Shown here one piece after another: positions 2,740-22,613 of a stretch of 64,000 bases of DNA; position 1 is the first letter of the stretch, and the number at the start of each line of letters is the position of its first letter. The DNA is from Candidatus Omnitrophota bacterium (GTDB taxonomy: Bacteria > Omnitrophota > Gorgyraeia > Gygaellales > Profunditerraquicolaceae). Made by a program: the position numbers and the translations under genes. The stretch spans positions 4,068 to 68,067 of the forward strand of contig JAZDMX010000017.1 of the NCBI GenBank assembly GCA_043800555.1, in the 5' to 3' direction. The notes under the pieces are model-generated. The model was not told where the DNA came from, did not search any database, and saw only the letters and a program-made list of their open reading frames with translations.

Positions 2740-2754
2740 CAGGAAAAGGGGGAT

Positions 2755-2900
2755 GTTTCTAAAAAAAGGGGACGCGGGAATTGGGGACGTTTCTACTTTT
2801 CCAGAGTTTAAAGCCGGAAAAGTAGAAACGTCCCCAATTCCCGTAGAAACGTCCCCCTTTTCGCAATTTCTAGAAAAGCGGAAACGTCCCTTTTTTTTCG
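2755..2900. repeat. Composite, nested copy of the palindromic REP-like element. It carries extra GGGGACG-cgggaatt units.
   Basis: Contains GGGGACGTTTCTACTTTTC ... GAAAAGTAGAAACGTCCCC plus mirrored flanks. Lies immediately upstream of the start of the giant repeat protein. Confidence 0.85.
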
Positions 2901-2940
2901 TATAATCCGTTATGTTTCCCATATTCTGCTATCGGCTAAA

Positions 2941-3522
2941 TCATTCCGCCCCAAACATAAACGCGGGTTCGTCGGGGATGGCTTCTTCGGAATTCTTAAA
3001 CGCCCCCCTTAAGGTAATTATTCCTCCGCCTCCTCCTAAAACTACTTCTCCGCCTTTCCTTATGTAAAGCGCCTTATCCGTAACATTATCCGGAGCAATC
3101 AATCCGTAAACGAAATTCTCGGCGGTAACCGTTGAATCCGTCCTCCCGCCGGCTGTAAGCGATTTCGCCTTAAAAACTTCAGACACTTTAGAGATAACTA
3201 CGCCGGCCCCCTGCTTGTCGACAACGGCATCATCCGATGAGCCGGGCACTCCTTTGGGGAACCAATTGCCGGCTTTATCCCAGCTTGCCGCGTCGGCCTT
3301 CCCCGACCACTGCTTCGTATCAGCCCGCGCGCCGCTACAAGAAAAAAATAGCACAAAAATGAATAAACTCAAGGAAAATATGAGAGAAAAGGGGGACGAA
3401 AAAAAGGGGGACGTTTCTACTTTTCTGGCGCTAGATTCGGGAAAAGTAGAAACGTCCCCTTTTTTCCCGTTCTCCTTTTCTCCGCTTCTCTTTTCTCTTG
3501 AGACATCCGCATTTTTCTTCAT
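2941..3522 (-). CDS. Secreted hypothetical protein. Its N-terminal region includes a translated REP-like element, followed by a hydrophobic signal-like segment.
   Basis: The 193-aa ORF has its ATG at 3522, overlapping the stop of the upstream gene in an ATGA arrangement. Hydrophobic stretch SLIFSLSLFIFVLFFSCSGARA. Confidence 0.5.
   Translation of the reverse strand: MKKNADVSREKRSGEKENGKKGDVSTFPESSARKVETSPFFSSPFSLIFSLSLFIFVLFFSCSGARADTKQWSGKADAASWDKAGNWFPKGVPGSSDDAVVDKQGAGVVISKVSEVFKAKSLTAGGRTDSTVTAENFVYGLIAPDNVTDKALYIRKGGEVVLGGGGGIITLRGAFKNSEEAIPDEPAFMFGAE
3387..3467. repeat. REP-like palindromic element, copy 2.
   Basis: GGGGGACG aaaaaaa GGGGGACGTTTCTACTTTTC tggcgctagattcgg GAAAAGTAGAAACGTCCCC with a T-run. 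Confidence 0.9.
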
Positions 3523-4832
3523 GGCCTGACAAATAGCGAAGCTCCGCCAATATCCATTTTCTTTACTTCCAAATAAACCTTGCCATCCAGAATTATTTCA
3601 CCCGAGACGTCATTAAAGCCATAATCATACAGGCCATTATACCCCAAACTCAAAAGGTTAAGGCCTAAATCAGCCGCCAGGCGCGGCCGGGCGGAAAAAA
3701 CTTTATTGCCCTCCGGGTATTCTATGGTATAAGTTTCAATAAGCGGCTGGGCCAAACCGGAAATCTTGGAAAATTGGACCTTAAGCACCCAGGAAGAGCC
3801 CCCGCTTTCGGGCTTTGCCTCCAGGATTAAAGAATCTTTATTATCAATACCGCTTAAATTGTCCAGATAGAGCGCCTTGACCTCCCTGGAATCCGGTATA
3901 GGGAACCTCGCCCCTTCCTTCAGCATAAGATTGCCCGAGCGCATCGGCGCGTTACGCAAAGCGACAAAAGTAATGCTTTGGCGCGTACTGCCGTTTTTGC
4001 TTTGCGCGGTAAAAGCGATTTCTATCGCCGTGATTACGGGTATATCGGAAGTTGCTATGGAGCCTTCCGAACCCAATTCGCTATTTGTATTGTCAAAATA
4101 ACGAAATTTAAAATCCGTGATTTTCACCCCGAAAGGATTTTTATAAACCTCTTTCGAACCGTCTTTATCGTCAATAAATACTGCTTGGGCAAGCGGGTCA
4201 TAGCGAAAAGTTACCAGGCAATCGGCGTCTTTTCCATAATCCGGATAAAAAGTAAAACGCAGGTGGCTGCCGGCAGGCACAGCCATATCCAGCTTGAATT
4301 GAGGGTAGTCTTCGGATTTTCCTTTATCGATGAAGGTGACCGGAACAACCTTGTATTCATTGGATTCGGGCAAAAGCGCCTCGGCAATCGGCAGGCTTGC
4401 GCCGGGTTTAATATGTTTATTTAAGGTATAGGTGTTGACCCCGGTATAGACGTCGTGAGTGTCGTCGGTCCAAGGCATAACCGTAACAACTTTTTCAGAA
4501 GTGCCGTCTACCACTTCCAGCGCGTCGCGAAGCCCGTAAGCGCCGGGAAGCCCTTCCACGAGTTCCTCCATAATCCGCGAAGAAGCCTGCTGCAAAAGAA
4601 GCTGATCCTGGGAAATGTCCCAACTTTCCAAGGCAGTCTTCAGGCTGAAATATAACGCGGCTGTGATTAAAGTGGAAATCGCTACGGCGATAACGAGTTC
4701 AATAAGAGTAAACCCCCTGGAAAAGGGGGACGTTCCCGCGGAAAAGGGGGACGTTTCTACTTTTCTGGCGCTAGATTCGGGAAAAGTAGAAACGTCCCCC
4801 TTTTTCAGCTCGCCTTTTCTTCTCATATCCAT
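3519..4832 (-). CDS. Large prepilin-type N-terminal cleavage/methylation domain protein. Possibly a minor pilin or tip-adhesin-like subunit.
   Basis: The motif SRG|FTLIELVIAVAISTLITAALYF is a class III signal with Glu+5. Total length 437 aa. A 40-aa leader includes the translated REP element. Confidence 0.6.
   Translation of the reverse strand: MDMRRKGELKKGDVSTFPESSARKVETSPFSAGTSPFSRGFTLIELVIAVAISTLITAALYFSLKTALESWDISQDQLLLQQASSRIMEELVEGLPGAYGLRDALEVVDGTSEKVVTVMPWTDDTHDVYTGVNTYTLNKHIKPGASLPIAEALLPESNEYKVVPVTFIDKGKSEDYPQFKLDMAVPAGSHLRFTFYPDYGKDADCLVTFRYDPLAQAVFIDDKDGSKEVYKNPFGVKITDFKFRYFDNTNSELGSEGSIATSDIPVITAIEIAFTAQSKNGSTRQSITFVALRNAPMRSGNLMLKEGARFPIPDSREVKALYLDNLSGIDNKDSLILEAKPESGGSSWVLKVQFSKISGLAQPLIETYTIEYPEGNKVFSARPRLAADLGLNLLSLGYNGLYDYGFNDVSGEIILDGKVYLEVKKMDIGGASLFVRP
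4712..4806. repeat. REP-like palindromic element, copy 3, with an extra partial left arm.
   Basis: GGGGGACGttcccgcggaaaaGGGGGACGTTTCTACTTTTC tggcgctagattcgg GAAAAGTAGAAACGTCCCCC. Confidence 0.9.
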
Positions 4833-5326
4833 ATACTGTCCTCGAACAAAGTAGCCACGGAAGCAACCGGCTTCTTAAGGTTATCGCTGCGGTAAACCTC
4901 CACCCTGACCTCCAAAGGGTCCGTATCGGCAAGAACGCGCCGCAAAACCCTCCACTTGGCCTGGTTCATTTCCAAAGGAGGCTCATCCAGTTTTGGCGTC
5001 CAGAGGTCGCCTATTTTTTTAAGGCCGGGCTTGGTAACATTCAAATTCTGGGTCCTTTCCATTTCCCAGCGCGCCAGGTTTACAGCGGTAATCTCTTCTC
5101 CTGAAACCGTAACGGAATAAAGAGCGCTTGAAAAAAGCTGTATCATCGGTATAAAGAGCACGGCGATAACGACAAGCGCGATGAGGATCTCGATAAAAGT
5201 AAATCCCCGGAAAAAAGGGGACGTTTCTACTTTTCCCGGATCTGGCGCCAGAAAAGTAGAAACGTCCCCTTTTTTCCGGGAAAAGTAGAAACGTCCCCCT
5301 TTTTCTTTTTCGATATCAAAACGCAT
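4823..5326 (-). CDS. Minor pseudopilin, GspI/J- or PilV-like, with a prepilin N-terminus.
   Basis: FRG|FTFIEILIALVVIAVLF. The leader contains a translated REP element. Confidence 0.6.
   Translation of the reverse strand: MRFDIEKEKGGRFYFSRKKGDVSTFLAPDPGKVETSPFFRGFTFIEILIALVVIAVLFIPMIQLFSSALYSVTVSGEEITAVNLARWEMERTQNLNVTKPGLKKIGDLWTPKLDEPPLEMNQAKWRVLRRVLADTDPLEVRVEVYRSDNLKKPVASVATLFEDSIWI
5211..5306. repeat. REP-like palindromic element, copy 4 (1.5 copies: one hairpin plus an extra right arm).
   Basis: GGGGACGTTTCTACTTTTC ccggatctggcgccag AAAAGTAGAAACGTCCCC ttttttccggg AAAAGTAGAAACGTCCCCC. Confidence 0.9.
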
Positions 5327-5720
5327 TATACCTCACTTGAACAGCGCGCTTGACGCCGTTACTGTTACCTATAGAAACTATTGTTGATTGCGAATAATCG
5401 TTATACACTTCAAAAACGCCTCCGTTTAATTTCGTGGGAGGGACTATCATATCAAGTTGTTCTTGTTCATCTACAGGCGCTTCCCCTGCCTGGTTCTTAA
5501 GAGCGCTGACTGCCTTGGCGATCCCGGCTTCGGCTAAATATAACGCTCTTGCCCTATCCAGCTCAATCTGGCTTAAGCTCAACACGTTAAAGAACAAAGC
5601 CATAAGGGTCGCCCCTAAAAGAGAAATCGTAAGGATCACAATCAGGACAATCAATAAAATTGCCCCTTTTTCGGCTTGCGGCTTGCGGCGTATGGTTAGC
5701 GCTAAGCGCTCCATTACCAT
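5316..5720 (-). CDS. GspK/PilX-like minor pseudopilin N-terminal domain protein.
   Basis: EKGAILLIVLIVILTISLLGATLMALF followed by ELDRARALYLAEAGI, resembling the GspK/PilX N-terminal helix. It has no Glu+5. Confidence 0.5.
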   Translation of the reverse strand: MVMERLALTIRRKPQAEKGAILLIVLIVILTISLLGATLMALFFNVLSLSQIELDRARALYLAEAGIAKAVSALKNQAGEAPVDEQEQLDMIVPPTKLNGGVFEVYNDYSQSTIVSIGNSNGVKRAVQVRYNAF

Positions 5721-6259
5721 TCAGAAGGCACCTCGCCTTTGTTTTTTCCCCACTTATCGCTCAAAGGCTCGGTTACATTCACTACCACCTTGGCTTTATC
5801 CGTATAATACGCCCAGCCTCCTGCGCCGGACAGATCCTCGTCGCTCTTAAGGTCTACAAAAGAATTGCTGCCTGCTTTGGAAGAAACCATCTCCAGGGGA
5901 AGTTTGGCTAAGTATGGCTGCTTAACGCCCATATCATCGTAGCTCCTGGTCAAGAGATCAGAAAGCGCCACGGGATATTCCCCTTCTTTGGCGCGGAACA
6001 TCGCGATGCGCGTGCGCAGCGTATTTAAATTGGTGAGTGTGGCCGAAACCTTTGCTTCCGTATCAAAACCAATGAAATTAGGAATAATAGTCGCTGCCAA
6101 TATCGCGATGATAGAAATAACAATTAGAAGCTCAAGCAAAGTGAAGCCCTTAGAAAAGGGGGACGTTTCTACTTTTCTGGCACGAGGCTTGCGAAAAGTA
6201 GAAACGTCCCCCTTTTCCGCGCCCCCTTTTTCCTTCCGGAAAGATAATGCTAACCTCAT
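5714..6259 (-). CDS. gspG: GspG/PulG-like major pseudopilin (type II secretion / type IV pilin-like).
   Basis: SKG|FTLLELLIVISIIAILAATIIPNF is a textbook GspG N-terminus. The 38-aa leader includes a translated REP element. Confidence 0.75.
   Translation of the reverse strand: MRLALSFRKEKGGAEKGDVSTFRKPRARKVETSPFSKGFTLLELLIVISIIAILAATIIPNFIGFDTEAKVSATLTNLNTLRTRIAMFRAKEGEYPVALSDLLTRSYDDMGVKQPYLAKLPLEMVSSKAGSNSFVDLKSDEDLSGAGGWAYYTDKAKVVVNVTEPLSDKWGKNKGEVPSEW
6153..6233. repeat. REP-like palindromic element, copy 5.
   Basis: GGGGGACGTTTCTACTTTTC tggcacgaggcttgc GAAAAGTAGAAACGTCCCCC. Confidence 0.9.
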
Positions 6260-6263
6260 TTTC

Positions 6264-7508
6264 CTACCTCCTGATAACGCTGATTAGATTAAAAATAGGC
6301 AATAAAACAGATAGGGCGATAAAAGCCACAATCGAACCCATTACCAAAAGCATTGCCGGCTCAAGCAGGCTGGTAAGGTTACGCACCGTAAATTCGATTT
6401 CCGGCTCATAAAAAGAGGCTATCTGGTCGAACATCTGGTCAAGCCTCCCTGTGCGCTCTCCCGTGTTAATCAACTGTATAACCATAGGCGGGAATAAACC
6501 CGACGCCTGGAAAGGCTCGGTTAAGCTTTGCCCTTGCGAAATAGCTAACCGGGTGTCTTTAATCATCTTTTGCAGGACAACATTAGGAATAGTATTCTCT
6601 ACCACCGAAAGCGCTTCTAACACCGGGACTCCGGATTTGGTAAGGGCGGCTATAGAACGCGATAAGCGGCTGGTTATGACCTTAAGGGTCAGCGGCCCAA
6701 ACAACGGAAGCCGCAGAAGCAAGAAATCAATGCGGTAGCGGCCCGCCGAAGTCCGGTAATAATTCCTTAAAGCGTTTAGGCCAATGATAGCTGCCAGGCC
6801 GATTAACCACCAGAAATTCCTTACGATATAGCTTAAAGAAAGCAGGGTTTTTGTAGGTAAGGGCAACTTGGCCGAAGAGGCTTCAAATATGGCAACGAAT
6901 TTAGGGAGGACCGCGACCAAAACAAAATTCACGATAACAAAAGCTACCAAGCCCAGCACTATAGGATAAACCAATGCCGAACGGATCCGGCTGCGCAGGT
7001 CAATCTCCTGCGTGCTTAATTCCGCCAGCCTGCTCAAGACCTTATCCAGCATGCCTCCGGCTTCCCCCACTTTGATTAAGCTTACATATAAATTCTCGAA
7101 GATACCGGGGTAGCGGGCAAGCGATTCCGAAAAACTCAATCCCTCCTCTAAAGAAGAAATAATATCTTTTATGACCGACTTAAACCTCGAATTTTGCGTC
7201 TGGCCTAAAACATTTTCCAGGCTTGTAATTAACGGGGCGCCGGTAGAAATAAGGGTGCTTAACTGTCGAGTAAATACAAGCAACTCCTGGCGCGAAACTC
7301 TTCTCACCCAGAAAGGGGAGGGCGTTTCCACTTTTCCCGAGCTTGGCGCCGAAAAAGTGGAAACGCCCTCCCCTTTTTCCGCTATGTCAACCGGGCTAAG
7401 GCCGAGTTTCTCTATTGACAAGGCTGCTTTTGTTTCGTCTTCGGCATCAATGACCCCTTGAGCCAAAGCGCCTTGGGCATCTCTTGCTTTATAGCTAAAG
7501 GTTGTCAT
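6264..7508 (-). CDS. pilC: Type II secretion system protein F / type IV pilus platform protein PilC. A 23-codon REP-like element is inserted in-frame.
   Basis: The N-terminus reads MTTFSYKARDAQGALAQGVIDAEDETKAALSIEKLGLSPV, then the insertion GEGVSTFSAPSSGKVETPSPF, then SRQELLVFTRQLSTLISTGAPL and three TM segments. Confidence 0.85.
   Translation of the reverse strand: MTTFSYKARDAQGALAQGVIDAEDETKAALSIEKLGLSPVDIAEKGEGVSTFSAPSSGKVETPSPFWVRRVSRQELLVFTRQLSTLISTGAPLITSLENVLGQTQNSRFKSVIKDIISSLEEGLSFSESLARYPGIFENLYVSLIKVGEAGGMLDKVLSRLAELSTQEIDLRSRIRSALVYPIVLGLVAFVIVNFVLVAVLPKFVAIFEASSAKLPLPTKTLLSLSYIVRNFWWLIGLAAIIGLNALRNYYRTSAGRYRIDFLLLRLPLFGPLTLKVITSRLSRSIAALTKSGVPVLEALSVVENTIPNVVLQKMIKDTRLAISQGQSLTEPFQASGLFPPMVIQLINTGERTGRLDQMFDQIASFYEPEIEFTVRNLTSLLEPAMLLVMGSIVAFIALSVLLPIFNLISVIRR
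7310..7380. repeat. Variant REP-like palindrome (subfamily) lying in-frame inside pilC.
   Basis: GGGGAGGGCGTTTCCACTTTT cccgagcttggcgccg AAAAAGTGGAAACGCCCTCCCC. The arms differ from the main family but remain perfectly complementary to each other. Confidence 0.8.
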
Positions 7509-9027
7509 AGCCCCAATACTCCTTCAACTTCTTTACCTTATCGTCATATATTTCCGTTTCTATGGATTTTTTTTGCGCTGCCTCTTTGGCCAGGCGTGAT
7601 TCTGCCCGGGCCTGCGCGCGGGCTTGTTCCTGGGCTTGCTGCGCCTTTTCTGCCCTATAAGCCTTAATCATTTCTCTCTCTAACTTAGCCCTTCGACGCG
7701 CTTCTTCCAGCAACGCCTGGTTGACAAGGCTCTTCTTATCCTCTTCCAGCGCTCCCTGCAAACGCTCTTTAAGGTCCTCGTCTTCCTGCAGCCGAAGCGC
7801 CTGGGAACTCTCTTCTTTTGTCAAATTCCTGATTTTGGCAAGTTCGGCCTCGGCCTTGCCGCGCGCTACTTTCCTTATGCGCGCGTTAACAGAGTTCCTC
7901 AATTCCACGGCCTTATCCGCGAATTCCGAATCCGGGTACTTTAATAATATCTTCGCGCACATCTCTTTGGCTAAATTCTGTTCGCCTAAATCGCTATATA
8001 AGGCTGCCGCCTGATAAGCGGACTCCGGCGCCTTTGGGCCGTCGGGAAACTGGGTAACGATACACTCATATATGCTTAAAGCCTGGTTCTTGCGCTGCCA
8101 ATCGTCTTTGTAAAAAGATTCTACGCCGGTGTTTTCCTGGAGGTTTTTAGCTTTTTCAAACAGCTTCGCCTGCACATTGAGGTCCGCCGTGCTCATAATG
8201 TTCACATAGGCTTCCTCTTCATAACGCGTCTTGTTTTCAGCGAGCATCTCCGCGCGCGAAAGCAGGATTTTGGGGGTAATGAAAACCGCCAGCTCCGTCT
8301 GGCTCTTATCGCTGCTTCTGCTGCTAAACAAATATTCTATACCCGGGATATAACCTAATATGGGGATGCGCGACCGCGTGCTGCTATCTTCTTGTTTGAT
8401 AAGCCCGCAGATTACAATAGTCTCGCCCTCTTTGACCCTTACAGTTGTGTCTGCTTCGCGCGTAGTAATGCGCGGCCCGGCGTCCAAAAGAGCGCTTACC
8501 GAAGAAACCTCCGGATGTATCGCCAGGGTAATATAACCATCGGCGTTAATAGACGGAGTTACCCGCAAAGTCGTCCCTACATCAATATATTTGGTGGTTT
8601 CAGTTGTGCCGGTAGTAGTCTGGGTCTTCTCCTTATACGGGACCTTCTCTCCGATAATAATGCGGGCCTCCCGGTTATTTAAAACCGCAATGGACGGAGA
8701 CGCCAATAAATGCGCTTTCTGGTCCTGGATTAAGGCGTCTATGGTAGCGGTAGCGGTCAAGCCGTTTAATACCAGGCTATCCAGCTTAAACTGCCCGCCG
8801 GAAAGGCTTGAGGATGTCCCGGCGAGAGTTTGAGTCATCTTAACAACTTTAGAAGAAGCCGATGGGCTCCAATCCGCGGTCCAGGTAACTCCCAGGTTCT
8901 TTAAATCTTTGGAGGTCATATCCACAATCTTGGCTTCAATAAGCACCTGCCGCGGCGGCTGGTCAACATCCTTAAGCAGCGCTTTTAATTTCTCGATACT
9001 GGCAGGATAATCGGTTACCACAAGCAT
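7495..9027 (-). CDS. pilQ: Secretin (GspD/PilQ family) C-terminal part. It contains the secretin domain plus an unusual ~260-aa TPR (YbgF-like) and charged coiled-coil C-terminal extension.
   Basis: PRQVLIEAKIVDM, ASPSIAVLNNREARIIIGEKVPY, SRIPILGYIPGIEYLF and TELAVFITPKIL. The frame stays open 27 codons upstream of the ATG, to a stop at 9103-9105. Confidence 0.75.
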   Translation of the reverse strand: MLVVTDYPASIEKLKALLKDVDQPPRQVLIEAKIVDMTSKDLKNLGVTWTADWSPSASSKVVKMTQTLAGTSSSLSGGQFKLDSLVLNGLTATATIDALIQDQKAHLLASPSIAVLNNREARIIIGEKVPYKEKTQTTTGTTETTKYIDVGTTLRVTPSINADGYITLAIHPEVSSVSALLDAGPRITTREADTTVRVKEGETIVICGLIKQEDSSTRSRIPILGYIPGIEYLFSSRSSDKSQTELAVFITPKILLSRAEMLAENKTRYEEEAYVNIMSTADLNVQAKLFEKAKNLQENTGVESFYKDDWQRKNQALSIYECIVTQFPDGPKAPESAYQAAALYSDLGEQNLAKEMCAKILLKYPDSEFADKAVELRNSVNARIRKVARGKAEAELAKIRNLTKEESSQALRLQEDEDLKERLQGALEEDKKSLVNQALLEEARRRAKLEREMIKAYRAEKAQQAQEQARAQARAESRLAKEAAQKKSIETEIYDDKVKKLKEYWGYDNL

Positions 9028-9047
9028 ATTGGCTACTTCATCAACTT

Positions 9048-9521
9048 TTATATCTCCCTTATTCGAGAGGACTTGCGCACAAGGTTCTGGGCGTCGGCAG
9101 CCTTAATGTATTTCAAGATTATAGGAACGGTGATGACTTGCGCGCCGTCAACTGAACCGGGCGAAATATAAAGCATATTGCCTTTACGGGAATAATTATA
9201 ACCATTGCCGGACAATATCGCCTCCAACGCCTCGCCTATCGATACGTCTTTTAAGGAAACGGTGATTTTTCCTTTAACATCGGAGGAAGTAACTAAGTTT
9301 AATCCGTAGGTATAACTTAGAGAACGCAGGACATCGGCGATATCGACATCTTTGTAATCCACGGAAATCATTTCTTTAAGAGGGTCGGATAGCGCTGCCT
9401 CTTTAGTCCCGGCTTCCGGGCTTATGCCCGCACCGGCAGCAGGCAACGGCGATCCTTGCGCCAAAGGCGCAATAGCCATGAATAGAAAGGACGCGCAAAT
9501 AAACGCTATTTTGTTTTTCAT
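9048..9521 (-). CDS. pilQ: Secretin N-terminal fragment: signal peptide plus N0/N1 domains. It is separated from the secretin body by a frameshift.
   Basis: MKNKIAFICASFLFMAIAPLAQG signal peptide. ISVDYKDVDIADVLRSLSYTYGLNLV is a secretin/TonB-N-terminus short (STN) domain. The fragment ends AQNLVRKSSRIREI*. Confidence 0.65.
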   Translation of the reverse strand: MKNKIAFICASFLFMAIAPLAQGSPLPAAGAGISPEAGTKEAALSDPLKEMISVDYKDVDIADVLRSLSYTYGLNLVTSSDVKGKITVSLKDVSIGEALEAILSGNGYNYSRKGNMLYISPGSVDGAQVITVPIILKYIKAADAQNLVRKSSRIREI

Positions 9522-12522: not shown

Positions 12523-12530
12523 AAATTGGG

Positions 12531-12620
12531 CCCGGAAAAAGGGGGACGTTTCTACTTTTCCGGCGCCAGATCCGGGAAAAGTAGAAACGTCCCCCTTTTT
12601 CCAGGCCCCTTTTTTAACCC
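12531..12620. repeat. REP-like palindromic element, copy 7, immediately 3' of the RAYT gene.
   Basis: GGGGGACGTTTCTACTTTTC cggcgccagatccgg GAAAAGTAGAAACGTCCCCC. Confidence 0.9.
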
Positions 12621-13282
12621 CTCGGCCTTCCTATTTTTTTGTTAAAGTTATTTATTTGATAGAACTCTGATAACCCGCGGACAAACGCCTCGCTGCCGAT
12701 GAAAAACTGTTTAGAAATAACCTCTGAATTCACTATGCTGCTATCTACTACAAATTCTATATATAGTTTCGCTCTAGCCTGGAGAGAGCCGGAAAGGCTG
12801 CAATACGCCGGGCTATCGGAAATTACGGCATTTGGCAAACCAAGCGCATAATAACAGTAGCTGCTGAAGCGATACCTTTCAGGCGCTTTAACCAGCCCGG
12901 ACCTTACCGGATTAAGCTCAATATACTTCCCGCATTGCAAAAGATACGAATCGGTATCAATAATATTGCTTTTATACCTGCCCTGCCAGATATGCCCGCT
13001 GTAACCATAAGTCCTTTTGTAATAATTAAAATATAAGAGATTGAGTTGTTTCATAAACTTGGGCAAGTTACTTGTAGCATCCAGCCAAACAATCAAATGG
13101 CTATGGTTACTCATGATACAATAGTGGAATATACTGATATTATTCTCTTTTCTAAGGTTTTTTAGCAGTTCCCAATAGGCATGCTTGTCTTCATCGCACC
13201 TAAAGATACACTGCTGGTTATTTCCTCTAGTCATAATATGCAAAGCCCCATTCCGGGGGATAAGCCTTCTTGTCCTGGGCAT
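12614..13282 (-). CDS. REP-associated tyrosine transposase (RAYT; IS200/IS605 TnpA-like Y1 HuH transposase).
   Basis: HuH motif CIMSNHSHLIV and catalytic-Tyr motif YIELNPVRSGLV, the RAYT signature Y..NPV.AGLV. AGGAGG Shine-Dalgarno sequence upstream. REP copies flank it on both sides. Confidence 0.8.
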   Translation of the reverse strand: MPRTRRLIPRNGALHIMTRGNNQQCIFRCDEDKHAYWELLKNLRKENNISIFHYCIMSNHSHLIVWLDATSNLPKFMKQLNLLYFNYYKRTYGYSGHIWQGRYKSNIIDTDSYLLQCGKYIELNPVRSGLVKAPERYRFSSYCYYALGLPNAVISDSPAYCSLSGSLQARAKLYIEFVVDSSIVNSEVISKQFFIGSEAFVRGLSEFYQINNFNKKIGRPRG

Positions 13283-13357
13283 AATAATACCTCCTTTCGC
13301 GCTCTTATACTAATTGACGCAAAAGAAGGCAGAATCTAACTAAAAAAGAGGAAAAAA

Positions 13358-13465
13358 TTGGGGACGCGAAATTGGGGACGCGAAATTGGGGACGTTTCTA
13401 CTTTTCTGGCTTTAGGTTCTAGAAAAGTAGAAACGTCCCCAATTTCGCCCAATTCCGCGTCCTAG
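13358..13465. repeat. REP-like element, copy 8. Extended form with two GGGGACG-cgaaatt units, 5' of the RAYT gene.
   Basis: GGGGACGcgaaattGGGGACGcgaaattGGGGACGTTTCTACTTTTC tggctttaggttctag AAAAGTAGAAACGTCCCC aatttcgcccaattccgCGTCC. Confidence 0.9.
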
Positions 13466-13653: not shown

Positions 13654-13682
13654 CCTCCTATTAAAAGAAAAGCGAAGGAGGC

Positions 13683-15533: not shown

Positions 15534-17879
15534 CTATTTATTCTTCAATTCTCTCCACATAAGCTGATTAATGCCTGTCTTACCTGCCCTGCCAAAAGTG
15601 ATTGCCCCTTTTCTGGTTTTTATCTTATACGATGACGACACCAGGATAGTAACCGTTTCCGCCTCTGAATCGGTTACGGAAAGCGTGATCTTTCCATTGG
15701 TGAATCTGGCGGAAGTAGCTGCCAGCGAAGCGCTGCCGTTATCCGAATCCTCAACCGCCTCTACATTTACCGTCAGGCCGCTCTCCGAAGTAATGACGTT
15801 GCCTTCATCATCCACTATCTGGATAGTGACCTCGCCGGTCCCGACAGGCGAGGTAGTGTCAATTACTTCGATAGTGGCGTTTTTCACCGTAATTTTGGAC
15901 GACTCAACGCTCAAAGAGCCTTTTTGAGACTGGGCAACCACGGTATAACTGCCTGCCTGAGCTGGAACAGCTGAAAATGTATGCGCGCCCGCATCTGCGC
16001 CGGTAAAAGTGTACGGCCCCGGCAGGGCCAATCCAATACCCGAGGACAATTCAACAGCTCCGGGGTAATTCGGTATGGGTCCCCCCAGCGCGTCTAAAAC
16101 TTTCACCACCATCTCAATCGGCTCGCCGATATAGAAGAAATCTCGCTCACTGTTGGCGGGAATTACGCTGATTGACATACTCTTGGGTAAAAATACGATG
16201 TCGGGGCTAATCCCGGATTTTGCCGGATCAACCGAATCTTCGGCCTTAAGTTTTATCGTGCCGTAAAGATTATAAGATACATCTGCTTTGGCAATTCCGC
16301 TAAGGAAACTGCTTGCCGCTATCACGGAAGGAGAAAACGATGCCTTAGGAATACTAAGAGGCGTAACCGCTAACGGCAATAAATTAACAGCGCTATTATA
16401 ATTCGGGGTTATTAAGCCCGCGGCATTTAAAGCGGTAACGCTAACCTTAAATGGATTTGAAACAATTTGCGGGCTCTCGGCCGAAACAATAAAGCTTGCC
16501 GGCAGGAATAAAATCTGGCTGCTTGCGCCTGTTTGATCCGAATCTTCGCTATCGGTTGCCGTAATCGTAACCAGGCCGCAATCAGGATATTTCGCCGTGG
16601 TAACCTTAAGGACGCCCTTGACGAAACCCGACACGTTATCAGGCAATATGGGAAAACTACCCTTAGCCGGAGAAATATAATCTAGCGACAGGTTCACGGC
16701 GCCGCCGTAAGATTCATCGGTATTGGCCTTCTCATCCTTGGCGGTAATTATTATATCAAAACTTTGGCCGGCGACCTGCGGCGTAGCGGCTTCAACGGCA
16801 AAACGCGCAAACTTATTCACTATCTCAAATTCCTGCAGGGCGTCGAGATAACCCCGGTCCGGATACTCCCTTACGTTAATTACGGGCCTGCCGGAAGCGG
16901 TATCTTTATAATAAAAGGTTACCTGTTGGGCTGATTTCGGAATAATAATCTGCTCTTGGCTTACCCAGGGGTCCTTATTCAGAGAAAAACTTCCGCTAGT
17001 GGAAGTAGATTTTAGCTCTAAAGTTATATCTGTCGCCGCTGTCTGGGGCGCGGAATCGGAATCCTGCAGTTGAAGGACAATCGGCCCCGAAACCTGGCCC
17101 TGCATTAACTTCTGGGGCGCGCTAATTATCTGCAAACGGTAAATGTAGCTGACTTCTATATCGTCGACATAAGCATTACTCTGCCCGGAAGCCGAATAAG
17201 TGCCGTAAAACTTAAGGTCGCTTAAAGAATTTATGGTATTATCGATAAATCCCAGGTTGGTTTCCAGCGGGCTAAACCCTATATCCGAATTGGGATCGAC
17301 AAAATAAAGATCGTAGGTATGGTTAATGAAATCGAGTTTCATGGACACATCGTACCACTGCCCGGTTACATAGGTAGCTCCGGTATCCACCCAGGAGGAG
17401 CCGTCAGCAACCAGGACATTGCCGGTGAAATCAAAACAAACAGCCCCGACTCCGGATGAGGGCACGCTGGGGGTTTGATTGGAAATCGAAGGACGGATTT
17501 TAAAACGAATCCAGGTAGGCGTATGCCCGCCATATGCAAAAGGCCGGTCCACCACGGGAACGTTGAGCGCCCCAATGAGCTCCACTGAATTGCCTGTTCC
17601 GCCGGGAGTTACTTTAGACTGCGCGATCGCGTTATTTTCCGAACCGCTAAAAACATTCCAGTAATCTGTGCCGTCAATGGTTGCCCCGTCGATAAAATTG
17701 CTGAAATCCTGGAAATATGTGTCAAGGGTAGCTGACTGCGGCAAGCCGCAAAAAGCCTCCGGCGCCCCGCATATTAAGAAAAATATAATAAGTATTGCGC
17801 GGGATAAAAAAAAGGGGGACGTTTCTACTTTTCTGGAAGCTAAAGCCGGAAAAGTAGAAACGTCCCCCTTTTTTCTCAT
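15534..17879 (-). CDS. Large secreted surface protein with a lectin/LamG-like N-terminal region and Ig-like repeats. Its N-terminus is encoded by a REP element, followed by a signal peptide.
   Basis: The 781-aa protein starts MRKKGDVSTF...KVETSPFF, the REP translation, followed by LSRAILIIFFLICGAPEAFC. The sequence is rich in T/S/V/G beta-strand repeats. Confidence 0.55.
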   Translation of the reverse strand: MRKKGDVSTFPALASRKVETSPFFLSRAILIIFFLICGAPEAFCGLPQSATLDTYFQDFSNFIDGATIDGTDYWNVFSGSENNAIAQSKVTPGGTGNSVELIGALNVPVVDRPFAYGGHTPTWIRFKIRPSISNQTPSVPSSGVGAVCFDFTGNVLVADGSSWVDTGATYVTGQWYDVSMKLDFINHTYDLYFVDPNSDIGFSPLETNLGFIDNTINSLSDLKFYGTYSASGQSNAYVDDIEVSYIYRLQIISAPQKLMQGQVSGPIVLQLQDSDSAPQTAATDITLELKSTSTSGSFSLNKDPWVSQEQIIIPKSAQQVTFYYKDTASGRPVINVREYPDRGYLDALQEFEIVNKFARFAVEAATPQVAGQSFDIIITAKDEKANTDESYGGAVNLSLDYISPAKGSFPILPDNVSGFVKGVLKVTTAKYPDCGLVTITATDSEDSDQTGASSQILFLPASFIVSAESPQIVSNPFKVSVTALNAAGLITPNYNSAVNLLPLAVTPLSIPKASFSPSVIAASSFLSGIAKADVSYNLYGTIKLKAEDSVDPAKSGISPDIVFLPKSMSISVIPANSERDFFYIGEPIEMVVKVLDALGGPIPNYPGAVELSSGIGLALPGPYTFTGADAGAHTFSAVPAQAGSYTVVAQSQKGSLSVESSKITVKNATIEVIDTTSPVGTGEVTIQIVDDEGNVITSESGLTVNVEAVEDSDNGSASLAATSARFTNGKITLSVTDSEAETVTILVSSSYKIKTRKGAITFGRAGKTGINQLMWRELKNK
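17806..17876. repeat. REP-like palindromic element, copy 11. It overlaps the start of the 15534..17879 gene.
   Basis: GGGGGACGTTTCTACTTTTC tggaagctaaagccg GAAAAGTAGAAACGTCCCCC. Confidence 0.9.
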
Positions 17880-20924: not shown

Positions 20925-22613
20925 CTATTGTTTTTTCTTGAATTCTCCTTCAAAATAATCGGCCTGCGCGAAATCCCCCTGGCTGTAATAAAAAGCAGCC
21001 AGGTTACGATAGGCGTCGGCATAATCCGGGTTTATTGCGATAGTCTCCTTCCACAGCTTTTCCGCTTCTTCCGGCTTGCCCTGGTTATAATATAGTATCC
21101 CCAGGTTAAAACGGACGTCATCGTAATCCGGATTAACCGCCAATTCCATCTTGTATTCTTCTTCCGCGGCTTCAAGCTCGCCCCGGGAGGCGTAAATCAA
21201 CCCTAAATTATTATGCGCCATCGGCTCAAGCGCGTTAAGCTCCAAGGCCTTTTTGTATTCCGGCTCCGCTTTATCCAGTGAGCCTTCAAGATAATACATC
21301 GCCCCCAAGTTACGGTGGGCAAGCGGCGAATGCGGAGAATTCTTTACGGCGTTTAGCCAGAAACTCAACTTGTCTCTGAAATTCCCGGTGTGAAAAAAGG
21401 TTATGGCCGCGAATAAAATTATAACCGCGGATGCAGCCGTAAAATTCCTCTTTAAGCCAAAATCAAGCTTCTTCATTATATCGGTTTCAAGGAGCAAAAT
21501 AAAAAACCCGGCCAGCGGCATATAAACCCTATGCTCTATGAAATCCGCCGCTATCTTCGGATTCGGCCGGATAAACGAGGGCAATAAGAAAAGCAAAAAC
21601 CAGGCTGCGCCGAAAATGACAAATCCGCGGCGGGCATGTTTTGAGAAAAACAAGGCCGGCGTAATTAACGCCAACGCCAAAATACCGTAAACAAATGTCG
21701 TATCTTGTATCAAGGGGAGCACGGACAGATTAAAAGGGAAAATGATCTTGCCGATAAACTGAATTAAAGCCGGCAGATTCAGCAGCATCGACTTAACCAT
21801 ATTCGCTACGGTCATCGGCATGGGATTATCGCTAAGCGCCACCGAACGCATAAAAAACCAAAGGCCGGATACAGCCAGCCATCCCGCCAGCACAAAAAAA
21901 GGGGACGTTTCTACTTTTCTGGCGCCAAGTTCGGGAAAAGTAGAAACGTCCCCTTTTTTCGAAACGCCCCGCTTTTTCCATATAAGCCAATAATATAGGA
22001 TACACACGGGCATAAGCATTAAAGCCGATTCTTTCGTAAAGAGGGCCAGGCAAAAAAAGAAGATATGCGCCAAACAATACCTGATCTTTTTTGTCTCCAG
22101 GAAATCCAAAAAGAAAATAAATGACGCTAAGCCAAAAAGGGCTAGCAGGGAATCGTTTCTTCCCGGTATCCAGCTTACCGCTTGCGCCAATACGGGATGG
22201 ACGCTAAAAAGCAGGGAGAAAAATAACGCCGGCCTAAAGGGATAGCCCAATTTGGAAAAAAACTTAAAGACCAGGCAGGAAGCCGCCAAATGTATGATGA
22301 TATTAGTCAGGTGGTATATGAACGGGTTTGTGCCGCCGAGCTGCGCGTCAAATAATAACGACACAGTCAGCAGCGGCCGATAATAAGCGGCCGAGCTATG
22401 CAGTATGTGAAAAACCTCGTGCCTGAATGCCTCAAGCACATTGGATAAACGGCTCAAGAAATTGTGGTTATTGATGACTAACGCATTATCGTCAAGGTAG
22501 GTAAACCCAAAAAATAGCGACTTAAAATATACCAGGAGCCCGGCGCCGGATATGAAAACGCAGGCCAACGCCCCCCTTAAAGAAACGGATCCGGGACCGC
22601 TTTTCTTCTTCAT
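20925..22613 (-). CDS. Polytopic membrane protein of the PMT/ArnT-like glycosyltransferase superfamily (GT-C fold) with C-terminal TPR repeats. A REP element is inserted in-frame in a loop.
   Basis: N-terminal GFTYLDDNAL (DD motif) followed by multiple TM segments. The C-terminus carries 4-5 TPRs (AEPEYKKALELNALEPMAHNNLGLIY...). The in-frame insertion reads SKKGDVSTFPELGARKVETSPFF. Confidence 0.55.
   Translation of the reverse strand: MKKKSGPGSVSLRGALACVFISGAGLLVYFKSLFFGFTYLDDNALVINNHNFLSRLSNVLEAFRHEVFHILHSSAAYYRPLLTVSLLFDAQLGGTNPFIYHLTNIIIHLAASCLVFKFFSKLGYPFRPALFFSLLFSVHPVLAQAVSWIPGRNDSLLALFGLASFIFFLDFLETKKIRYCLAHIFFFCLALFTKESALMLMPVCILYYWLIWKKRGVSKKGDVSTFPELGARKVETSPFFVLAGWLAVSGLWFFMRSVALSDNPMPMTVANMVKSMLLNLPALIQFIGKIIFPFNLSVLPLIQDTTFVYGILALALITPALFFSKHARRGFVIFGAAWFLLFLLPSFIRPNPKIAADFIEHRVYMPLAGFFILLLETDIMKKLDFGLKRNFTAASAVIILFAAITFFHTGNFRDKLSFWLNAVKNSPHSPLAHRNLGAMYYLEGSLDKAEPEYKKALELNALEPMAHNNLGLIYASRGELEAAEEEYKMELAVNPDYDDVRFNLGILYYNQGKPEEAEKLWKETIAINPDYADAYRNLAAFYYSQGDFAQADYFEGEFKKKQ
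21894..21959. repeat. REP-like palindromic element, copy 12, lying in-frame (66 nt) inside the 20925..22613 CDS.
   Basis: GGGGACGTTTCTACTTTTC tggcgccaagttcgg GAAAAGTAGAAACGTCCCC. Confidence 0.9.

What the first reader, a model, noticed from the sequence alone, without database searches (positions are those of the whole stretch)
4712..6259. REP elements embedded in the cleaved leader peptides of three prepilin/pseudopilin genes
The GspG-like gene (5714..6259), a GspI/J-like gene (4823..5326) and a 437-aa prepilin-like gene (3519..4832) each carry a REP hairpin between the ATG and the G|FT(L/F)IE prepilin peptidase site. No alternative start codon exists downstream of the hairpin, so the leaders are 38-41 aa long instead of the usual 6-15. 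Each gene's ATG overlaps the stop codon of the preceding gene by 7-11 nt. Because the leader is removed by prepilin peptidase, a coding REP insertion is probably neutral at the protein level. It also places a stable stem-loop at the translation start of each pilin mRNA, which could act as a translational or mRNA-stability control.
Basis: partly seen in the sequence, partly recalled or inferred. Interest (0 to 1): 0.7.

Follow-up and report, generated by a model that had tools for sequence, protein, structure and literature searches.

The report
Mobile palindromes inside pilin leader peptides
In an uncultured Omnitrophota bacterium, copies of a small mobile DNA hairpin have landed in frame inside the short, cleaved-off leader peptides of three pilin-like genes and made them about 40 residues long; this is a clear new example of the known tendency of selfish palindromes to survive in dispensable coding sequence, with no sign so far of a regulatory role.

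Summary
A perfect hairpin (core GGGGACGTTTCTACTTTTC, 13-16 nt loop, reverse complement) occurs 16 times in the window. One copy lies in each of the three prepilin-type genes, between a conserved Shine-Dalgarno/ATG and the K/R-G|FT(L/F)IE site. No ATG, GTG or TTG follows the hairpin in frame, so the leaders are 38, 41 and 40 aa.

Syntenic relatives settle the interpretation. Loci L003 and L129 have leaders of 5-6 aa (MKFSKG|F, MRSRG|F, MDMRRG|F), apart from one L129 gene that carries a different small hairpin at that site. Locus L002 has the element in two of the three genes, and L001 keeps only right-arm remnants. The mature regions are under purifying selection (dN/dS 0.07-0.17).

The element is REPIN-like. 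A RAYT-type Y1 transposase gene at 12614-13282 is flanked by copies. Other copies sit in frame in signal-peptide N-regions, in a GspF linker and in a membrane-protein loop. Unrelated palindromes occupy the same leader in other Omnitrophota.

The best reading is selfish DNA retained in a disposable cytoplasmic leader, translated and then cleaved off. A regulatory role is untested and is not required by the data. In-frame REPs within genes are already known (Rickettsia RPEs, Opitutus). The new parts are the leader-peptide niche and its repeated use.

The parts
5714..6259 (-). Major pseudopilin/pilin-like gene (GspG-like), 181 aa. The 38-aa leader MRLALSFRKEKGGAEKGDVSTFRKPRARKVETSPFSKG|FTLLELL is encoded at 6146-6259.
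   Evidence: Pfam N_methyl at aa 36-58 and a weak T2SSG match. TIGR02532 and a sub-threshold gspG match. SD caGGAGGtaggaaaATG and no later in-frame start. 100% identical to an NCBI Omnitrophota MAG protein.
6153..6217 (.). REPIN-like hairpin in the gspG-like leader: arms 6153-6177 and 6193-6217, 25 nt, 100% complementary, 15-nt loop.
   Evidence: Fold of the start region -63 kcal/mol, z -6.2. Absent from the orthologous site in L002 and L003; only a right-arm remnant in L001.
4823..5326 (-). Minor pseudopilin-like gene, 167 aa. The 41-aa leader is MRFDIEKEKGGRFYFSRKKGDVSTFLAPDPGKVETSPFFRG|FTFIEIL.
   Evidence: N_methyl at aa 40-59. Start context gtGAGGtataATGCGTT is conserved in L001, L002, L003 and L129. 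NCBI annotates the same 167-aa ORF.
5206..5305 (.). Full hairpin (arms 5206-5235 and 5251-5280, 30 nt, 100% complementary) plus one extra arm (core 5280-5298). On the mRNA the extra arm lies upstream of the hairpin and is read as GGRFYFS.
   Evidence: Fold -66.1 kcal/mol, z -8.3. Empty sites MRSRG|F in L003 and L129 and MPSKLEKAEKG|F in L001.
3519..4832 (-). 437-aa prepilin-type gene. The 40-aa leader is MDMRRKGELKKGDVSTFPESSARKVETSPFSAGTSPFSRG|FTLIELV.
   Evidence: N_methyl at aa 38-61. Alignment A2 shows the conserved GAGGAnnGTATATGGATATGAGA upstream and GGnTTnACnCTTATnGAACTC downstream of the insert.
4717..4804 (.). Full hairpin (arms 4742-4765 and 4781-4804, 24 nt, 100% complementary) plus a partial second right arm at 4717-4734.
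   Evidence: Its 53-nt core, loop included, is identical to the copy at 3407-3459. L003 has the empty site MDMRRG|F.
12614..13282 (-). Y1 (IS200-like), RAYT-like transposase gene, 222 aa. This is the likely mobilising enzyme.
   Evidence: Pfam Y1_Tnp E=1e-13. NCBIfam NF047646 REP-associated tyrosine transposase E=2.6e-18, 66 bits, below the cut-off of 80. NCBI calls it 'transposase'.
12523..12613 (.). Hairpin copy directly downstream of the transposase gene.
13380..13448 (.). Hairpin copy about 100 nt upstream of the transposase gene. Together with 12523-12613 it gives a REPtron-like arrangement.
3384..3482 (.). Hairpin in frame in the N-region of the predicted signal peptide of the 193-aa protein (2941-3522, minus strand).
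   Evidence: The L129 orthologue has a short N-region, MKMNIAISVMVFVLFSAFSVYA|DTKQWSG.
7312..7376 (.). Variant hairpin (GAGGGCGTTTCCAC / GTGGAAACGCCCTC, with changes on both arms) in frame inside gspF (6264-7508, minus strand), aa 43-66.
   Evidence: Alignment A1 places it in the variable linker, downstream of a conserved 42-aa N-terminus.
17808..17874 (.). Hairpin in frame directly after the start of a 781-aa DUF6701 protein (MRKKGDVSTF...). The stem begins 5 nt after the ATG.
21895..21959 (.). Hairpin in frame in the middle of a 562-aa PMT_2/TPR membrane protein (20925-22613, minus strand).
   Evidence: Pfam domains lie on both sides of it within one ORF.

Best explanation
The palindromes are REPIN-like, non-autonomous mobile elements. 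Each is an inverted doublet of a ~25-nt unit that forms a 24-30-bp perfect hairpin. They are most likely mobilised by the RAYT-type Y1 transposase encoded in the same window.

In this pseudopilin operon the genes abut or overlap (+4, -7, -11, -10 and -4 nt), so there is almost no intergenic DNA. Copies have persisted only in the dispensable coding stretch just after each start codon. In the three prepilin-type genes, that stretch is the class III signal-peptide leader. The leader stays in the cytoplasm and is cut off after Gly-1 by prepilin peptidase.

The element has two stop-free frames on either strand. All copies inside ORFs in this window use the frame read as KGDVSTF...KVETSPF. They are therefore translated as part of a basic 38-41-aa leader, which still ends in K/R-G|F, and are discarded with it, leaving the mature pilin unchanged.

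Shown here: the insertion lies between a conserved SD/ATG and the cleavage motif; related genomes have empty sites; the reading frame is preserved; and the host genes are under purifying selection.

Inferred, not shown: translation of the element, cleavage of the long leader, mobilisation by the RAYT-like protein, and near-neutrality.
For: - Repeat family: there are 16 hairpins against 0.02 core matches expected by chance. Six of them lie in 2700-7400, where 1.2 are expected (P=0.0013).
- Filled and empty sites: L003 has MKFSKG|F, MRSRG|F and MDMRRG|F. L129 has MRSRG|F. L002 has the element in two of the three genes. L001 has only right-arm remnants (MKTSPFFKG|F, MDIETSPFFKG|F). The start context is the same in all of them.
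- Start codons: no canonical in-frame start lies between the hairpin and G|F, and each upstream ATG has an SD.
- Frame preservation: the inserts add 96, 108 and 105 nt relative to L003. In L002 a copy with different loop spacing stays open in the other stop-free frame (KSRNVPIF).
- Proof that the family is translated: a copy lies at aa 43-66 of GspF, downstream of a conserved 42-aa N-terminus. Another lies between the PMT_2 and TPR domains of a single ORF.
- Selection: dN/dS is 0.07-0.17 at dS 0.7-1.1 for all five operon genes compared.
- Leader properties: the net charge is +7, +3 and +3, and K/R-G is retained at positions -2/-1. The leader is cytoplasmic and is cleaved after Gly-1 (PMC4471445).
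- Transposase: a RAYT-like gene is flanked by copies.
- Recurrence: unrelated palindromes occupy the same gspG-like leader in L004-L007 and the p437 site in L129. As annotated, 41 of 118 gspG-type and 22 of 63 minor-pilin homologues have leaders longer than 15 aa, and 18 and 17 of these have no internal Met.
Against: - There is no transcript or protein evidence, because the organism is an uncultured MAG.
- No prepilin peptidase gene was found in the window by motif search. Processing of 38-41-aa leaders is longer than the 6-26/30 aa documented and is assumed here.
- The secretin gene of the same cluster is split by a 1-nt frameshift near 9040-9050. This could be an assembly error, or a sign that the system is decaying in this lineage. 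The dN/dS values average over both lineages and would not detect recent decay.
- In L007, the 383-aa prepilin-type gene (the counterpart of the 437-aa gene) is out of frame with its conserved coupled ATG after about 300 nt of repeat insertions. Frame preservation is therefore not universal.
- A 24-30-bp perfect RNA stem inside a coding region is unlikely to be strictly cost-free. It could slow ribosomes or attract RNase III; this is inference.
- The RAYT match is below NCBIfam's curated cut-off.
- Presence and absence of the element do not follow the gene tree simply, so the insertion history is unresolved.
Confidence: 0.78

Rival explanations
1. The hairpins are kept because they act in cis on the operon mRNA. 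Each sits 28-46 nt after a gene junction. There it could protect the upstream segment from 3'-5' decay, attenuate transcription (a G/C stem base followed by U4-U8), or make downstream translation depend on coupling to the upstream ribosome. This would tune the ratios of major and minor pilins.
For: The stems are very stable (-45 to -66 kcal/mol, z -4.6 to -8.6). They lie just downstream of overlapping stop/start junctions. Palindromes of unrelated sequence recur at the same place in at least five other lineages. Arm changes are mirrored on the other arm, so complementarity is kept in variant copies (7312-7376; L002 2970-3037). In other bacteria REPs downstream of ORFs are thought to act as RNA elements (PMC3733652).
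Against: Close relatives with equally conserved pilin genes have no hairpin (L003, and L129 at the p167 site) or only one arm (L001). No copy follows gspG, the gene where a stabiliser would matter most. The same element also sits inside GspF, inside a membrane-protein loop and in ordinary intergenic DNA. The hairpins do not cover the SD or the ATG, except in the 781-aa gene. The terminator scan does not flag them, and terminator-like sites are not enriched. Mirrored arm changes are also expected from the way such elements replicate or from subfamily turnover.
Confidence: 0.15
2. The clustering in leaders comes from target preference and not only from tolerance. The element ends in GAAAAAGGGG, which resembles the Lys-Lys-Gly or Arg-Gly codons (AAR/AGR GGN) that end every prepilin leader and the Lys-rich N-regions of signal peptides. 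Insertion or microhomology-guided copying may therefore be drawn to these sites.
For: In every filled site the right end of the element abuts the AAG/AGG/CGG-GGN codons of the cleavage motif. Empty sites carry AAAGGG (L003 gspG), GAAAAAGG (L001) or AGAGG. The density is six copies in 4.7 kb (P=0.0013), and all 7 copies inside ORFs use one of the two open frames (naive two-sided p of about 0.016). Presence and absence do not follow the gene tree, which suggests repeated insertion at the same sites.
Against: The A-run and T-run are part of the palindrome itself and flank the intergenic copies too, so no target motif can be separated from the element. One empty site (L003 p402, AGACGCGGC) has no such motif. 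Unrelated palindromes with other termini use the same sites, which fits a permissive-site filter better. The sample is small. This rival is compatible with the main explanation.
Confidence: 0.25
3. The hairpins are not translated. Translation starts at a non-canonical codon after the hairpin, or the hairpin is removed from the RNA, so the real leaders are short and the long ORF extensions are accidental.
For: For REPs at ORF N-termini in Pseudomonas, Citrobacter and Stenotrophomonas this has been argued to be the usual situation (PMC3733652). In some Omnitrophota homologues a Met lies just before the cleavage site (for example MG|F and MTASRA|F).
Against: In the three window genes only 5-12 codons separate the hairpin from G|F. 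None is ATG, GTG, TTG, CTG or ATH, and no SD is present there. The conserved SD+ATG lies upstream of the insert in filled and empty sites alike. The frame is preserved in all window copies and in L002. The copies in GspF and in the PMT_2 protein cannot be avoided by any alternative start.
Confidence: 0.05
4. The pilus/secretion cluster is decaying in this lineage, and the insertions are tolerated because the genes no longer matter.
For: The secretin gene is split by a frameshift. The element density in this cluster is unusually high.
Against: All other cluster ORFs are intact, and every insertion keeps the frame. dN/dS is 0.07-0.17. L002 carries the element in two intact genes. Long palindrome-bearing leaders are common in intact homologues from many MAGs. 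A single frameshift in a MAG contig is a common assembly error.
Confidence: 0.07

Closest known systems
Rickettsia palindromic elements (RPE-1 and related; Ogata et al. 2000, as summarised in PMC3733652)
   Same: Both are short palindromic repeats inserted in frame in protein-coding genes whose products stay functional. Some sit at N-termini and are expressed. The idea is the same: 'selfish DNA in protein-coding genes' that survives where the extra peptide does no harm.
   Different: The sequences are unrelated and the phylum is different. RPE peptides remain in the mature protein, on its surface. Here the extra peptide lies in a leader that is predicted to be cleaved off, so the mature protein would be unchanged. 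A RAYT-like gene flanked by copies is also present here.
Intragenic GTAG/CGTC REPs (Di Nocera, De Gregorio and Rocco 2013, PMC3733652), most numerous in Opitutus terrae and R. conorii
   Same: These are REP-type palindromes located entirely within ORFs. They encode 20-80 aa, often as dimers, and an excess lies at ORF N-termini. RAYT genes are flanked by copies.
   Different: That study judged many N-terminal cases to be extragenic, with translation starting downstream, and it highlighted DNA-repair genes. Here downstream initiation is excluded for canonical start codons, related genomes have empty sites, and the host segment is a class III signal-peptide leader.
REPIN/RAYT systems of Pseudomonas and E. 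coli (Bertels and Rainey; PMC5581495, PMC8049555)
   Same: An inverted doublet forms a long hairpin. There are many near-identical copies and a single Y1 transposase gene flanked by copies. A GTAG tetranucleotide is present.
   Different: Classical REPINs are extragenic and are built from units that are themselves imperfect palindromes. Here the unit is not clearly self-complementary, the GTAG lies near the loop side of the arm, and about half of the copies lie in coding sequence.
Long-leader (type IVb / Flp) prepilins
   Same: The leaders run to tens of residues, are hydrophilic and basic, end in Gly-1, and are cleaved by prepilin peptidase (PMC4471445).
   Different: Documented leaders are 6-26 aa (up to about 30 in type IVb) and are a lineage trait of the pilin. 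Here the close orthologues compared have 5-6 aa (L003; L129 at p167), and the extra ~32-36 aa is a recent mobile-element insertion.

Membership tests
REP/REPIN-RAYT system | Short palindromic repeat present in many near-identical copies in one genome | tested here: met
   There are 16 hairpins in 64 kb. 13 of them have both 19-nt cores identical to the consensus, and 0.02 matches are expected by chance.
REP/REPIN-RAYT system | Inverted doublet (REPIN) able to fold as one long hairpin | tested here: met
   Arms are 24-42 nt and 88-100% complementary, with 9-18 nt between them as the tool extends the arms. The folds are far below those of shuffled sequence.
REP/REPIN-RAYT system | A RAYT (Y1, IS200-like) gene flanked by copies of the repeat | tested here: inconclusive
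   The 12614-13282 ORF matches Pfam Y1_Tnp above its cut-off (51.9 against 23 bits). Its match to NCBIfam NF047646 scores 66.3 bits, below the cut-off of 80. Copies lie on both sides of it. The architecture is met; equivalog status is not reached.
REP/REPIN-RAYT system | Predominantly extragenic location | tested here: not met
   At least 7 of the 16 copies lie in frame inside ORFs, and an eighth case is ambiguous.
REP/REPIN-RAYT system | Each REP unit is itself an imperfect palindrome with a conserved terminal GTAG | tested here: inconclusive
   GTAG is present (GAAAAGTAGAAACG), but it lies on the loop-proximal side of the arm. Within the unit only the 6-nt ends GAAAAG/CTTTTC are self-complementary (read directly from the sequence).
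Prepilin / class III signal peptide | Hydrophilic leader ending in Gly-1, then F+1, E+5 and about 20 hydrophobic residues | tested here: met
   The sites are KG|FTLLELLIV, RG|FTFIEILIA and RG|FTLIELVIA. Pfam N_methyl and TIGR02532 score above their cut-offs in all three genes.
Prepilin / class III signal peptide | Leader length within the described range (6-26 aa, up to about 30 for type IVb) | tested here: not met
   The leaders are 38, 41 and 40 aa, compared with the range given in PMC4471445.
Prepilin / class III signal peptide | Cleavage and N-methylation by a dedicated prepilin peptidase | not testable with these tools
   No A24 peptidase motif was found in the window. The rest of the genome was not available.
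T2SS major pseudopilin GspG (TIGR01710 / PF08334) | Score above the curated family threshold | tested here: not met
   TIGR01710 scores 45.8 bits against 88.85, and PF08334 scores 17.9 against 21. The gene neighbourhood (GspE, GspF, secretin, PilM/N/O-like genes) fits a type IV filament system in general.
MITE (miniature inverted-repeat transposable element) | Terminal inverted repeats flanked by a target-site duplication | tested here: not met
   Comparison of filled and empty sites shows no duplication of flanking bases. The whole element is a single hairpin, not a pair of TIRs around a core.
Rickettsia palindromic elements | Sequence homology to an RPE family | not tested
   No RPE sequences were compared. 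The resemblance is in behaviour (in-frame insertion) only. Rfam has no family matching the element.

The most novel reading that the evidence does not exclude
Palindromes of at least five or six unrelated families recur at exactly the same place, the first codons of the pseudopilin genes, across Omnitrophota. This recurrence may reflect selection for a strong stem-loop just after each overlapping stop/start junction. The hairpin would be a translated, self-removing cis-regulatory module that enforces translational coupling or sets mRNA segment stability in pilus operons. The cleaved leader would then be the device that lets a regulatory RNA structure sit inside a coding region at no cost to the protein.
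Probability: 0.13. Interest if true: 0.72.

Novelty: new variant of a known kind. Interest (0 to 1): 0.45.

Why it matters
The finding gives a clean natural experiment on two questions, with filled sites, empty sites and decayed sites in close relatives.

The first question is where selfish palindromes can survive in very compact genomes. The answer here is the cytoplasmic, discarded part of signal sequences.

The second question is how much length and sequence a prepilin leader can absorb. As annotated, leaders reach about 40 aa in this window, and 58 to 92 aa in some relatives. If these precursors are really processed, prepilin peptidases are almost indifferent to everything upstream of positions -2/-1.

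There is also a practical consequence. Gene callers and signal-peptide or pilin predictors, which expect the motif within about 30 residues of the start, will truncate or miss such genes. L007 contains two examples.

Tried and rejected
- Two scans of genome contigs. The exact 19-mer found nothing. A 14-mer returned about 114 chance hits and only one Omnitrophota contig (L062), which holds two inverted 14-mer matches ~150 nt apart. This MAG is evidently not among the representative genomes, so no genome-wide census was possible.
- A scan of metagenome contigs with the 19-mer gave 7 loci, of which only L123 and L125 carry related hairpins. That is too few for statistics.
- A search for other proteins carrying the element-encoded peptide. 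The word-indexed search found no candidate, and full HMMER against 1.84 billion representatives gave 0 hits at E<=0.001. The 40-aa query is too short and too biased in composition.
- Rfam: no family matches the element.
- The terminator scan does not flag the hairpins, because their loops exceed the scan's 8-nt limit, and terminator-like sites are not enriched.
- I suspected a palindrome in the L003 GspF linker (RLSGNGLRDTGIGS) and in the 11-aa N-terminal extension of the 134-aa gene. None was found.
- I considered MITE status and rejected it, because there is no target-site duplication.
- A regex search for a prepilin peptidase motif in the window found nothing.

Full report
**1. What is in the sequence**

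The region lies in a cluster of minus-strand genes for a type IV filament or type II secretion-like machine. In order these are PilM/N/O-like ORFs, a secretin, GspF (6264-7508), a GspG-like pilin (5714-6259), a 134-aa membrane-anchored protein (5316-5720), a 167-aa pseudopilin (4823-5326), a 437-aa prepilin-type protein (3519-4832) and a 193-aa secreted protein (2941-3522). GspE lies further upstream at 13765-15435. The GspG-like protein is 100% identical to a protein of a Candidatus Omnitrophota MAG on a 115-kb contig. NCBI already annotates the long ORFs as they are read here.

The repeat has the core GGGGACGTTTCTACTTTTC, then 13-16 nt, then the reverse complement. With up to 3 mismatches the core matches 33 times against 0.02 expected, which makes 16 complete hairpins in 64 kb. 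With their A-run and T-run extensions the arms reach 24-42 nt. In the three pilin genes they are 100% complementary.

**2.

Each of the three genes carries the Pfam N_methyl and TIGR02532 motif at residues ~36-61, not at the N-terminus. They are the only three prepilin motifs in the window. The leaders are:
- MRLALSFRKEKGGAEKGDVSTFRKPRARKVETSPFSKG|FTLLELL (38 aa);
- MRFDIEKEKGGRFYFSRKKGDVSTFLAPDPGKVETSPFFRG|FTFIEIL (41 aa);
- MDMRRKGELKKGDVSTFPESSARKVETSPFSAGTSPFSRG|FTLIELV (40 aa).

Between the right arm and the cleavage site there are only 5-12 codons. None of them is ATG, GTG or TTG, or even CTG or ATH. Each upstream ATG has a Shine-Dalgarno sequence: caGGAGGtaggaaaATG, gtGAGGtataATG and tcGAGGAcagtatATG. 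The RNA folds of the start regions are -56 to -66 kcal/mol, with z-scores of -4.6 to -8.3 against shuffled sequence.

Three details need correcting:
- The gspG-like ATG is separated from the gspF stop by 4 nt and does not overlap it. The 10- and 11-nt overlaps hold for the other two genes.
- The stems begin 28-46 nt after the A of the ATG, so they do not occlude the SD or the start codon.
- The GspG and GspI/J labels rest on scores below the curated cut-offs.

**3. Comparison with relatives**

Homologues of the GspG-like protein are almost all from Omnitrophota. Most have leaders of 4-10 aa, such as MKKG|F and MKFSKG|F. I fetched four syntenic loci with 80-92% identical proteins.
- **L003** has no palindrome in any of the three genes: MKFSKG|FTLLELL, MRSRG|FTFIEIL and MDMRRG|FTLIELI.
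- **L129** carries the orthologue closest to the 167-aa protein (92% identity; its gspG copy is cut off at the contig end). It has MRSRG|F in that gene. At the p437 site it has a different small hairpin (13-nt arms).
- **L002** has none in gspG (MNKKNG|F). It has the same element family in the other two genes. One of these copies has different loop spacing, and its right arm is read in the other open frame (KSRNVPIF).
- **L001** keeps only right-arm remnants directly after the start codons (ATGAAAACGTCCCCATTTTTCAAGGGC = MKTSPFFKG|F, and MDIETSPFFKG|F).

DNA alignments A2-A4 show conserved sequence on both sides of the insert. This includes the SD and ATG upstream of it (for example GAGGAnnGTATATGGATATGAGA).

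The orthologous leaders are short when the palindrome is absent, so the element is an insertion between a conserved start codon and the cleavage motif.

**4. Are the host genes alive, and is the element translated?**

dN/dS between the window and L001-L003 is 0.07-0.17 at dS 0.7-1.1 for gspF, gspG and the three downstream genes. Relative to L003 the inserts add 96, 108 and 105 nt, all multiples of three. The L002 copies also keep the frame.

By direct reading, the element has two stop-free frames on either strand and one closed frame (GAAAAG-TAG). All seven window copies that lie inside ORFs use the same open frame (naive two-sided p of about 0.016).

Two copies cannot be bypassed by any alternative start:
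- A variant copy at 7312-7376 occupies residues 43-66 of GspF. It lies in a variable linker, downstream of a 42-aa N-terminus that is conserved in orthologues (alignment A1).
- A copy at 21895-21959 lies between the PMT_2 and TPR domains of a single 562-aa ORF.

Translation of this repeat family is therefore the only reading consistent with intact proteins. It remains an inference, since no protein data exist.

**5. What the element is**

A 222-aa ORF at 12614-13282 matches Pfam Y1_Tnp (E=1e-13). It also matches NCBIfam 'REP-associated tyrosine transposase' (E=2.6e-18), but at 66 bits it is below the 80-bit cut-off. It is flanked by hairpin copies about 100 nt upstream and directly downstream, which is the REPtron arrangement.

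The element behaves like a REPIN: an inverted doublet, near-identical copies and the presence of GTAG. It departs from the textbook definition in two ways. About half of the copies are not extragenic, and the single unit is not clearly a palindrome itself. No target-site duplication is visible at filled versus empty sites, so it is not a classical MITE. Rfam has no matching family.

The 19-nt cores are identical between copies, while synonymous sites of the host genes are close to saturation between lineages. The copies are therefore either young or homogenised. Variant copies carry mirrored changes on both arms.

**6. Why the leaders?**

The junctions between successive genes of this operon are +4, -7, -11, -10 and -4 nt, so there is no intergenic DNA to host a repeat. 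The other window copies sit in ordinary intergenic spacers, for example 13690, 15469, 27742, 33020, 44005 and 52757.

The copies inside ORFs all sit in segments where extra hydrophilic residues should be harmless:
- the three prepilin leaders;
- the N-regions of the predicted signal peptides of the 193-aa and 781-aa proteins (the L129 orthologue of the former starts MKMNIAIS...);
- the GspF linker;
- a loop of the PMT_2 membrane protein.

According to Berry and Pelicic (PMC4471445), the prepilin leader stays in the cytoplasm, is cleaved after Gly-1, and is normally 6-26 aa (about 15-30 in type IVb). The element-extended leaders remain basic (net +7, +3, +3) and keep K/R-G at positions -2/-1.

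The simplest model is a filter. Insertions occur at gene boundaries, as REPs usually do, and only in-frame copies in disposable coding sequence persist.

A contribution from target preference cannot be excluded. The element's GAAAAAGGGG end resembles the Lys/Arg-Gly codons that end every leader. Six copies are packed into 4.7 kb, where 1.2 are expected (P=0.0013). Presence and absence do not follow the gene tree, which is roughly (L003,(window,(L129,(L001,L002)))). This implies either repeated insertion at the same sites or precise loss. IS200/IS605-type Y1 transposases are known to excise precisely; that is established knowledge for that family and was not tested here.

**7. Generality**

In four more distant Omnitrophota loci the gspG-like leader-coding DNA holds palindromes of unrelated sequence: L004 ACGCTGAAA/TTTCAGCGT, L005 CACAAAGTCACA, L006 CAGCGGACAG and L007 GATACGGGGTA.

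In L007 the minor pilin ORF runs from the conserved ATGCGTTTT start, in frame, through about 230 nt of repeats to A|FTYIEV. That gives a leader of roughly 80 aa, which the gene caller missed. The next gene in L007 is out of frame with its coupled ATG.

As annotated, 41 of 118 gspG-type and 22 of 63 minor-pilin homologues have leaders longer than 15 aa, and 18 and 17 of these have no internal Met. These counts are cluster representatives and are not phylogenetically independent. Some long leaders may be start-site over-extensions.

**8. The regulatory idea**

The hairpins are strong and lie just past each stop/start junction. Effects on mRNA stability, attenuation or translational coupling are therefore conceivable. 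In the 781-aa gene the stem starts 5 nt after the ATG.

Nothing in the data requires such a role:
- Relatives with equally conserved genes lack the hairpin or keep one arm only.
- There is none after gspG.
- The same element sits in places where regulation of a start makes no sense.
- The terminator scan is uninformative.

I rate a primary regulatory role at about 0.15.

**9. Caveats**

- There is no expression or protein evidence.
- No prepilin peptidase gene was found in the window.
- The secretin gene is split by a 1-nt frameshift near 9040-9050. This may be an assembly error or a sign of decay.
- The RAYT assignment is below the curated threshold.
- The genome-wide distribution of the element could not be obtained.

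**10. Relation to what is known**

In-frame palindromic insertions in genes are established for Rickettsia RPEs. Di Nocera et al. 2013 (PMC3733652) catalogued REPs within genes in several species, most numerous in Opitutus terrae. They noted an excess at ORF N-termini, and judged many of those cases to be extragenic, with translation starting downstream.

This case is the same kind of thing. Three features were not found in the papers read:
- The host segment is the cleaved leader of class III signal peptides, so the mature protein is predicted to be untouched.
- Downstream initiation is excluded for canonical codons, and related genomes have empty sites.
- The same site is colonised again and again by unrelated palindromes across a phylum.

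Searches for Omnitrophota with pilin terms, and for palindromic elements in signal peptides, found no prior description. The library does not cover all journals.

**Verdict**

The regulatory interpretation is unsupported. This is a new variant of a known phenomenon and is of moderate interest.

Noticed in passing
window 12523-13448: A REPtron-like unit: a 222-aa Y1/RAYT-like transposase gene (12614-13282, minus strand) with a hairpin copy on each side. NCBI annotates the gene only as 'transposase'.
   Followed up: partly
window 7312-7376 (inside gspF, 6264-7508, minus strand): A variant hairpin (GAGGGCGTTTCCAC / GTGGAAACGCCCTC) carries matching changes on both arms and is translated as residues 43-66 of GspF, in a variable linker. 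L002 2970-3037 holds another variant (GTGGACCGTTTCTAC) with 100% complementary arms. Arm changes appear to be mirrored.
   Followed up: partly
window 21895-21959 (inside ORF 20925-22613, minus strand): A hairpin lies in frame in the middle of a PMT_2/TPR membrane glycosyltransferase-like protein (…WKKRGVSKKGDVSTFPELGARKVETSPFFVLAGW…), with Pfam domains on both sides. Orthologues were not compared.
   Followed up: no
window 17808-17874 (ORF 15534-17879, minus strand): A 781-aa DUF6701/Big_1 protein starts MRKKGDVSTF.... The -45 kcal/mol stem begins 5 nt after an ATG that overlaps the upstream gene's stop (ATGA). This is the one case where the hairpin could directly hinder independent initiation.
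   Followed up: partly
window 2743-2922: A cluster of one full hairpin and three half-arms lies upstream of a very large gene that runs off the left end of the window (at least 970 aa; homologous to the protein of at least 1367 aa in L129). An ORF from ATG 2922 reads in frame through the whole cluster into the signal peptide. An ATG also exists just after the cluster, so coding versus 5'-UTR status is ambiguous.
   Followed up: partly
window 3407-3459 and 4747-4799: These two copies, in adjacent genes 1.3 kb apart, are identical over the whole 53-nt core including the loop (TGGCGCTAGATTCGG). This suggests very recent local copying or gene conversion. The copy in the 167-aa gene has the loop in the opposite orientation, yet its arms encode the same peptides.
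   Followed up: no
window ~9040-9050 (between ORFs 9048-9521 and 7495-9027, minus strand): The secretin gene is split into 157-aa and 510-aa ORFs by an apparent 1-nt frameshift (…LVRK / (I)LSNKGDIKVDEVANMLVVTDY…). Orthologues in L006 and L007 are single ORFs of 588-595 aa. This is either an assembly error or a pseudogene.
   Followed up: partly
L001 1266-1292 and 2501-2533: Two genes retain only the right arm of the element, directly after the start codon (ATGAAAACGTCCCCATTTTTC and ATGGATATAGAAACGTCCCCTTTTTTC). In both genes the deletion ends next to the GTAG of the arm. This could reflect site-specific excision or insertion of single units.
   Followed up: no
L007 5053-5290 and 5650-5990: In this locus one minor pilin gene has a leader of roughly 80 aa built from several repeat families, still in frame with the conserved ATG, and the gene caller truncated it. 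The 383-aa prepilin-type gene that follows has about 300 nt of repeats and is out of frame with its coupled ATG.
   Followed up: partly
window 45768-45849 (minus strand): There is a c-di-GMP-I-GGC riboswitch aptamer (Rfam RF03167, 62.3 bits against a gathering score of 59), upstream of ORF 45224-45724.
   Followed up: no
window 13470-13660 (minus strand): A small ORF with a good SD (aggaggttgATGATGATTAAGAGA…, about 60 aa, with a hydrophobic N-terminal segment) is bracketed by hairpin copies at 13690-13743 and 13380-13448, between gspE and the transposase gene.
   Followed up: no
P0061, P0073, P0077, P0150, P0162 (homologues): Several long leaders contain an extra 'GFTPLE' motif upstream of the real G|FT(L/F)IE site. 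It looks like a degenerate duplicated cleavage motif or a repeat that mimics one.
   Followed up: no
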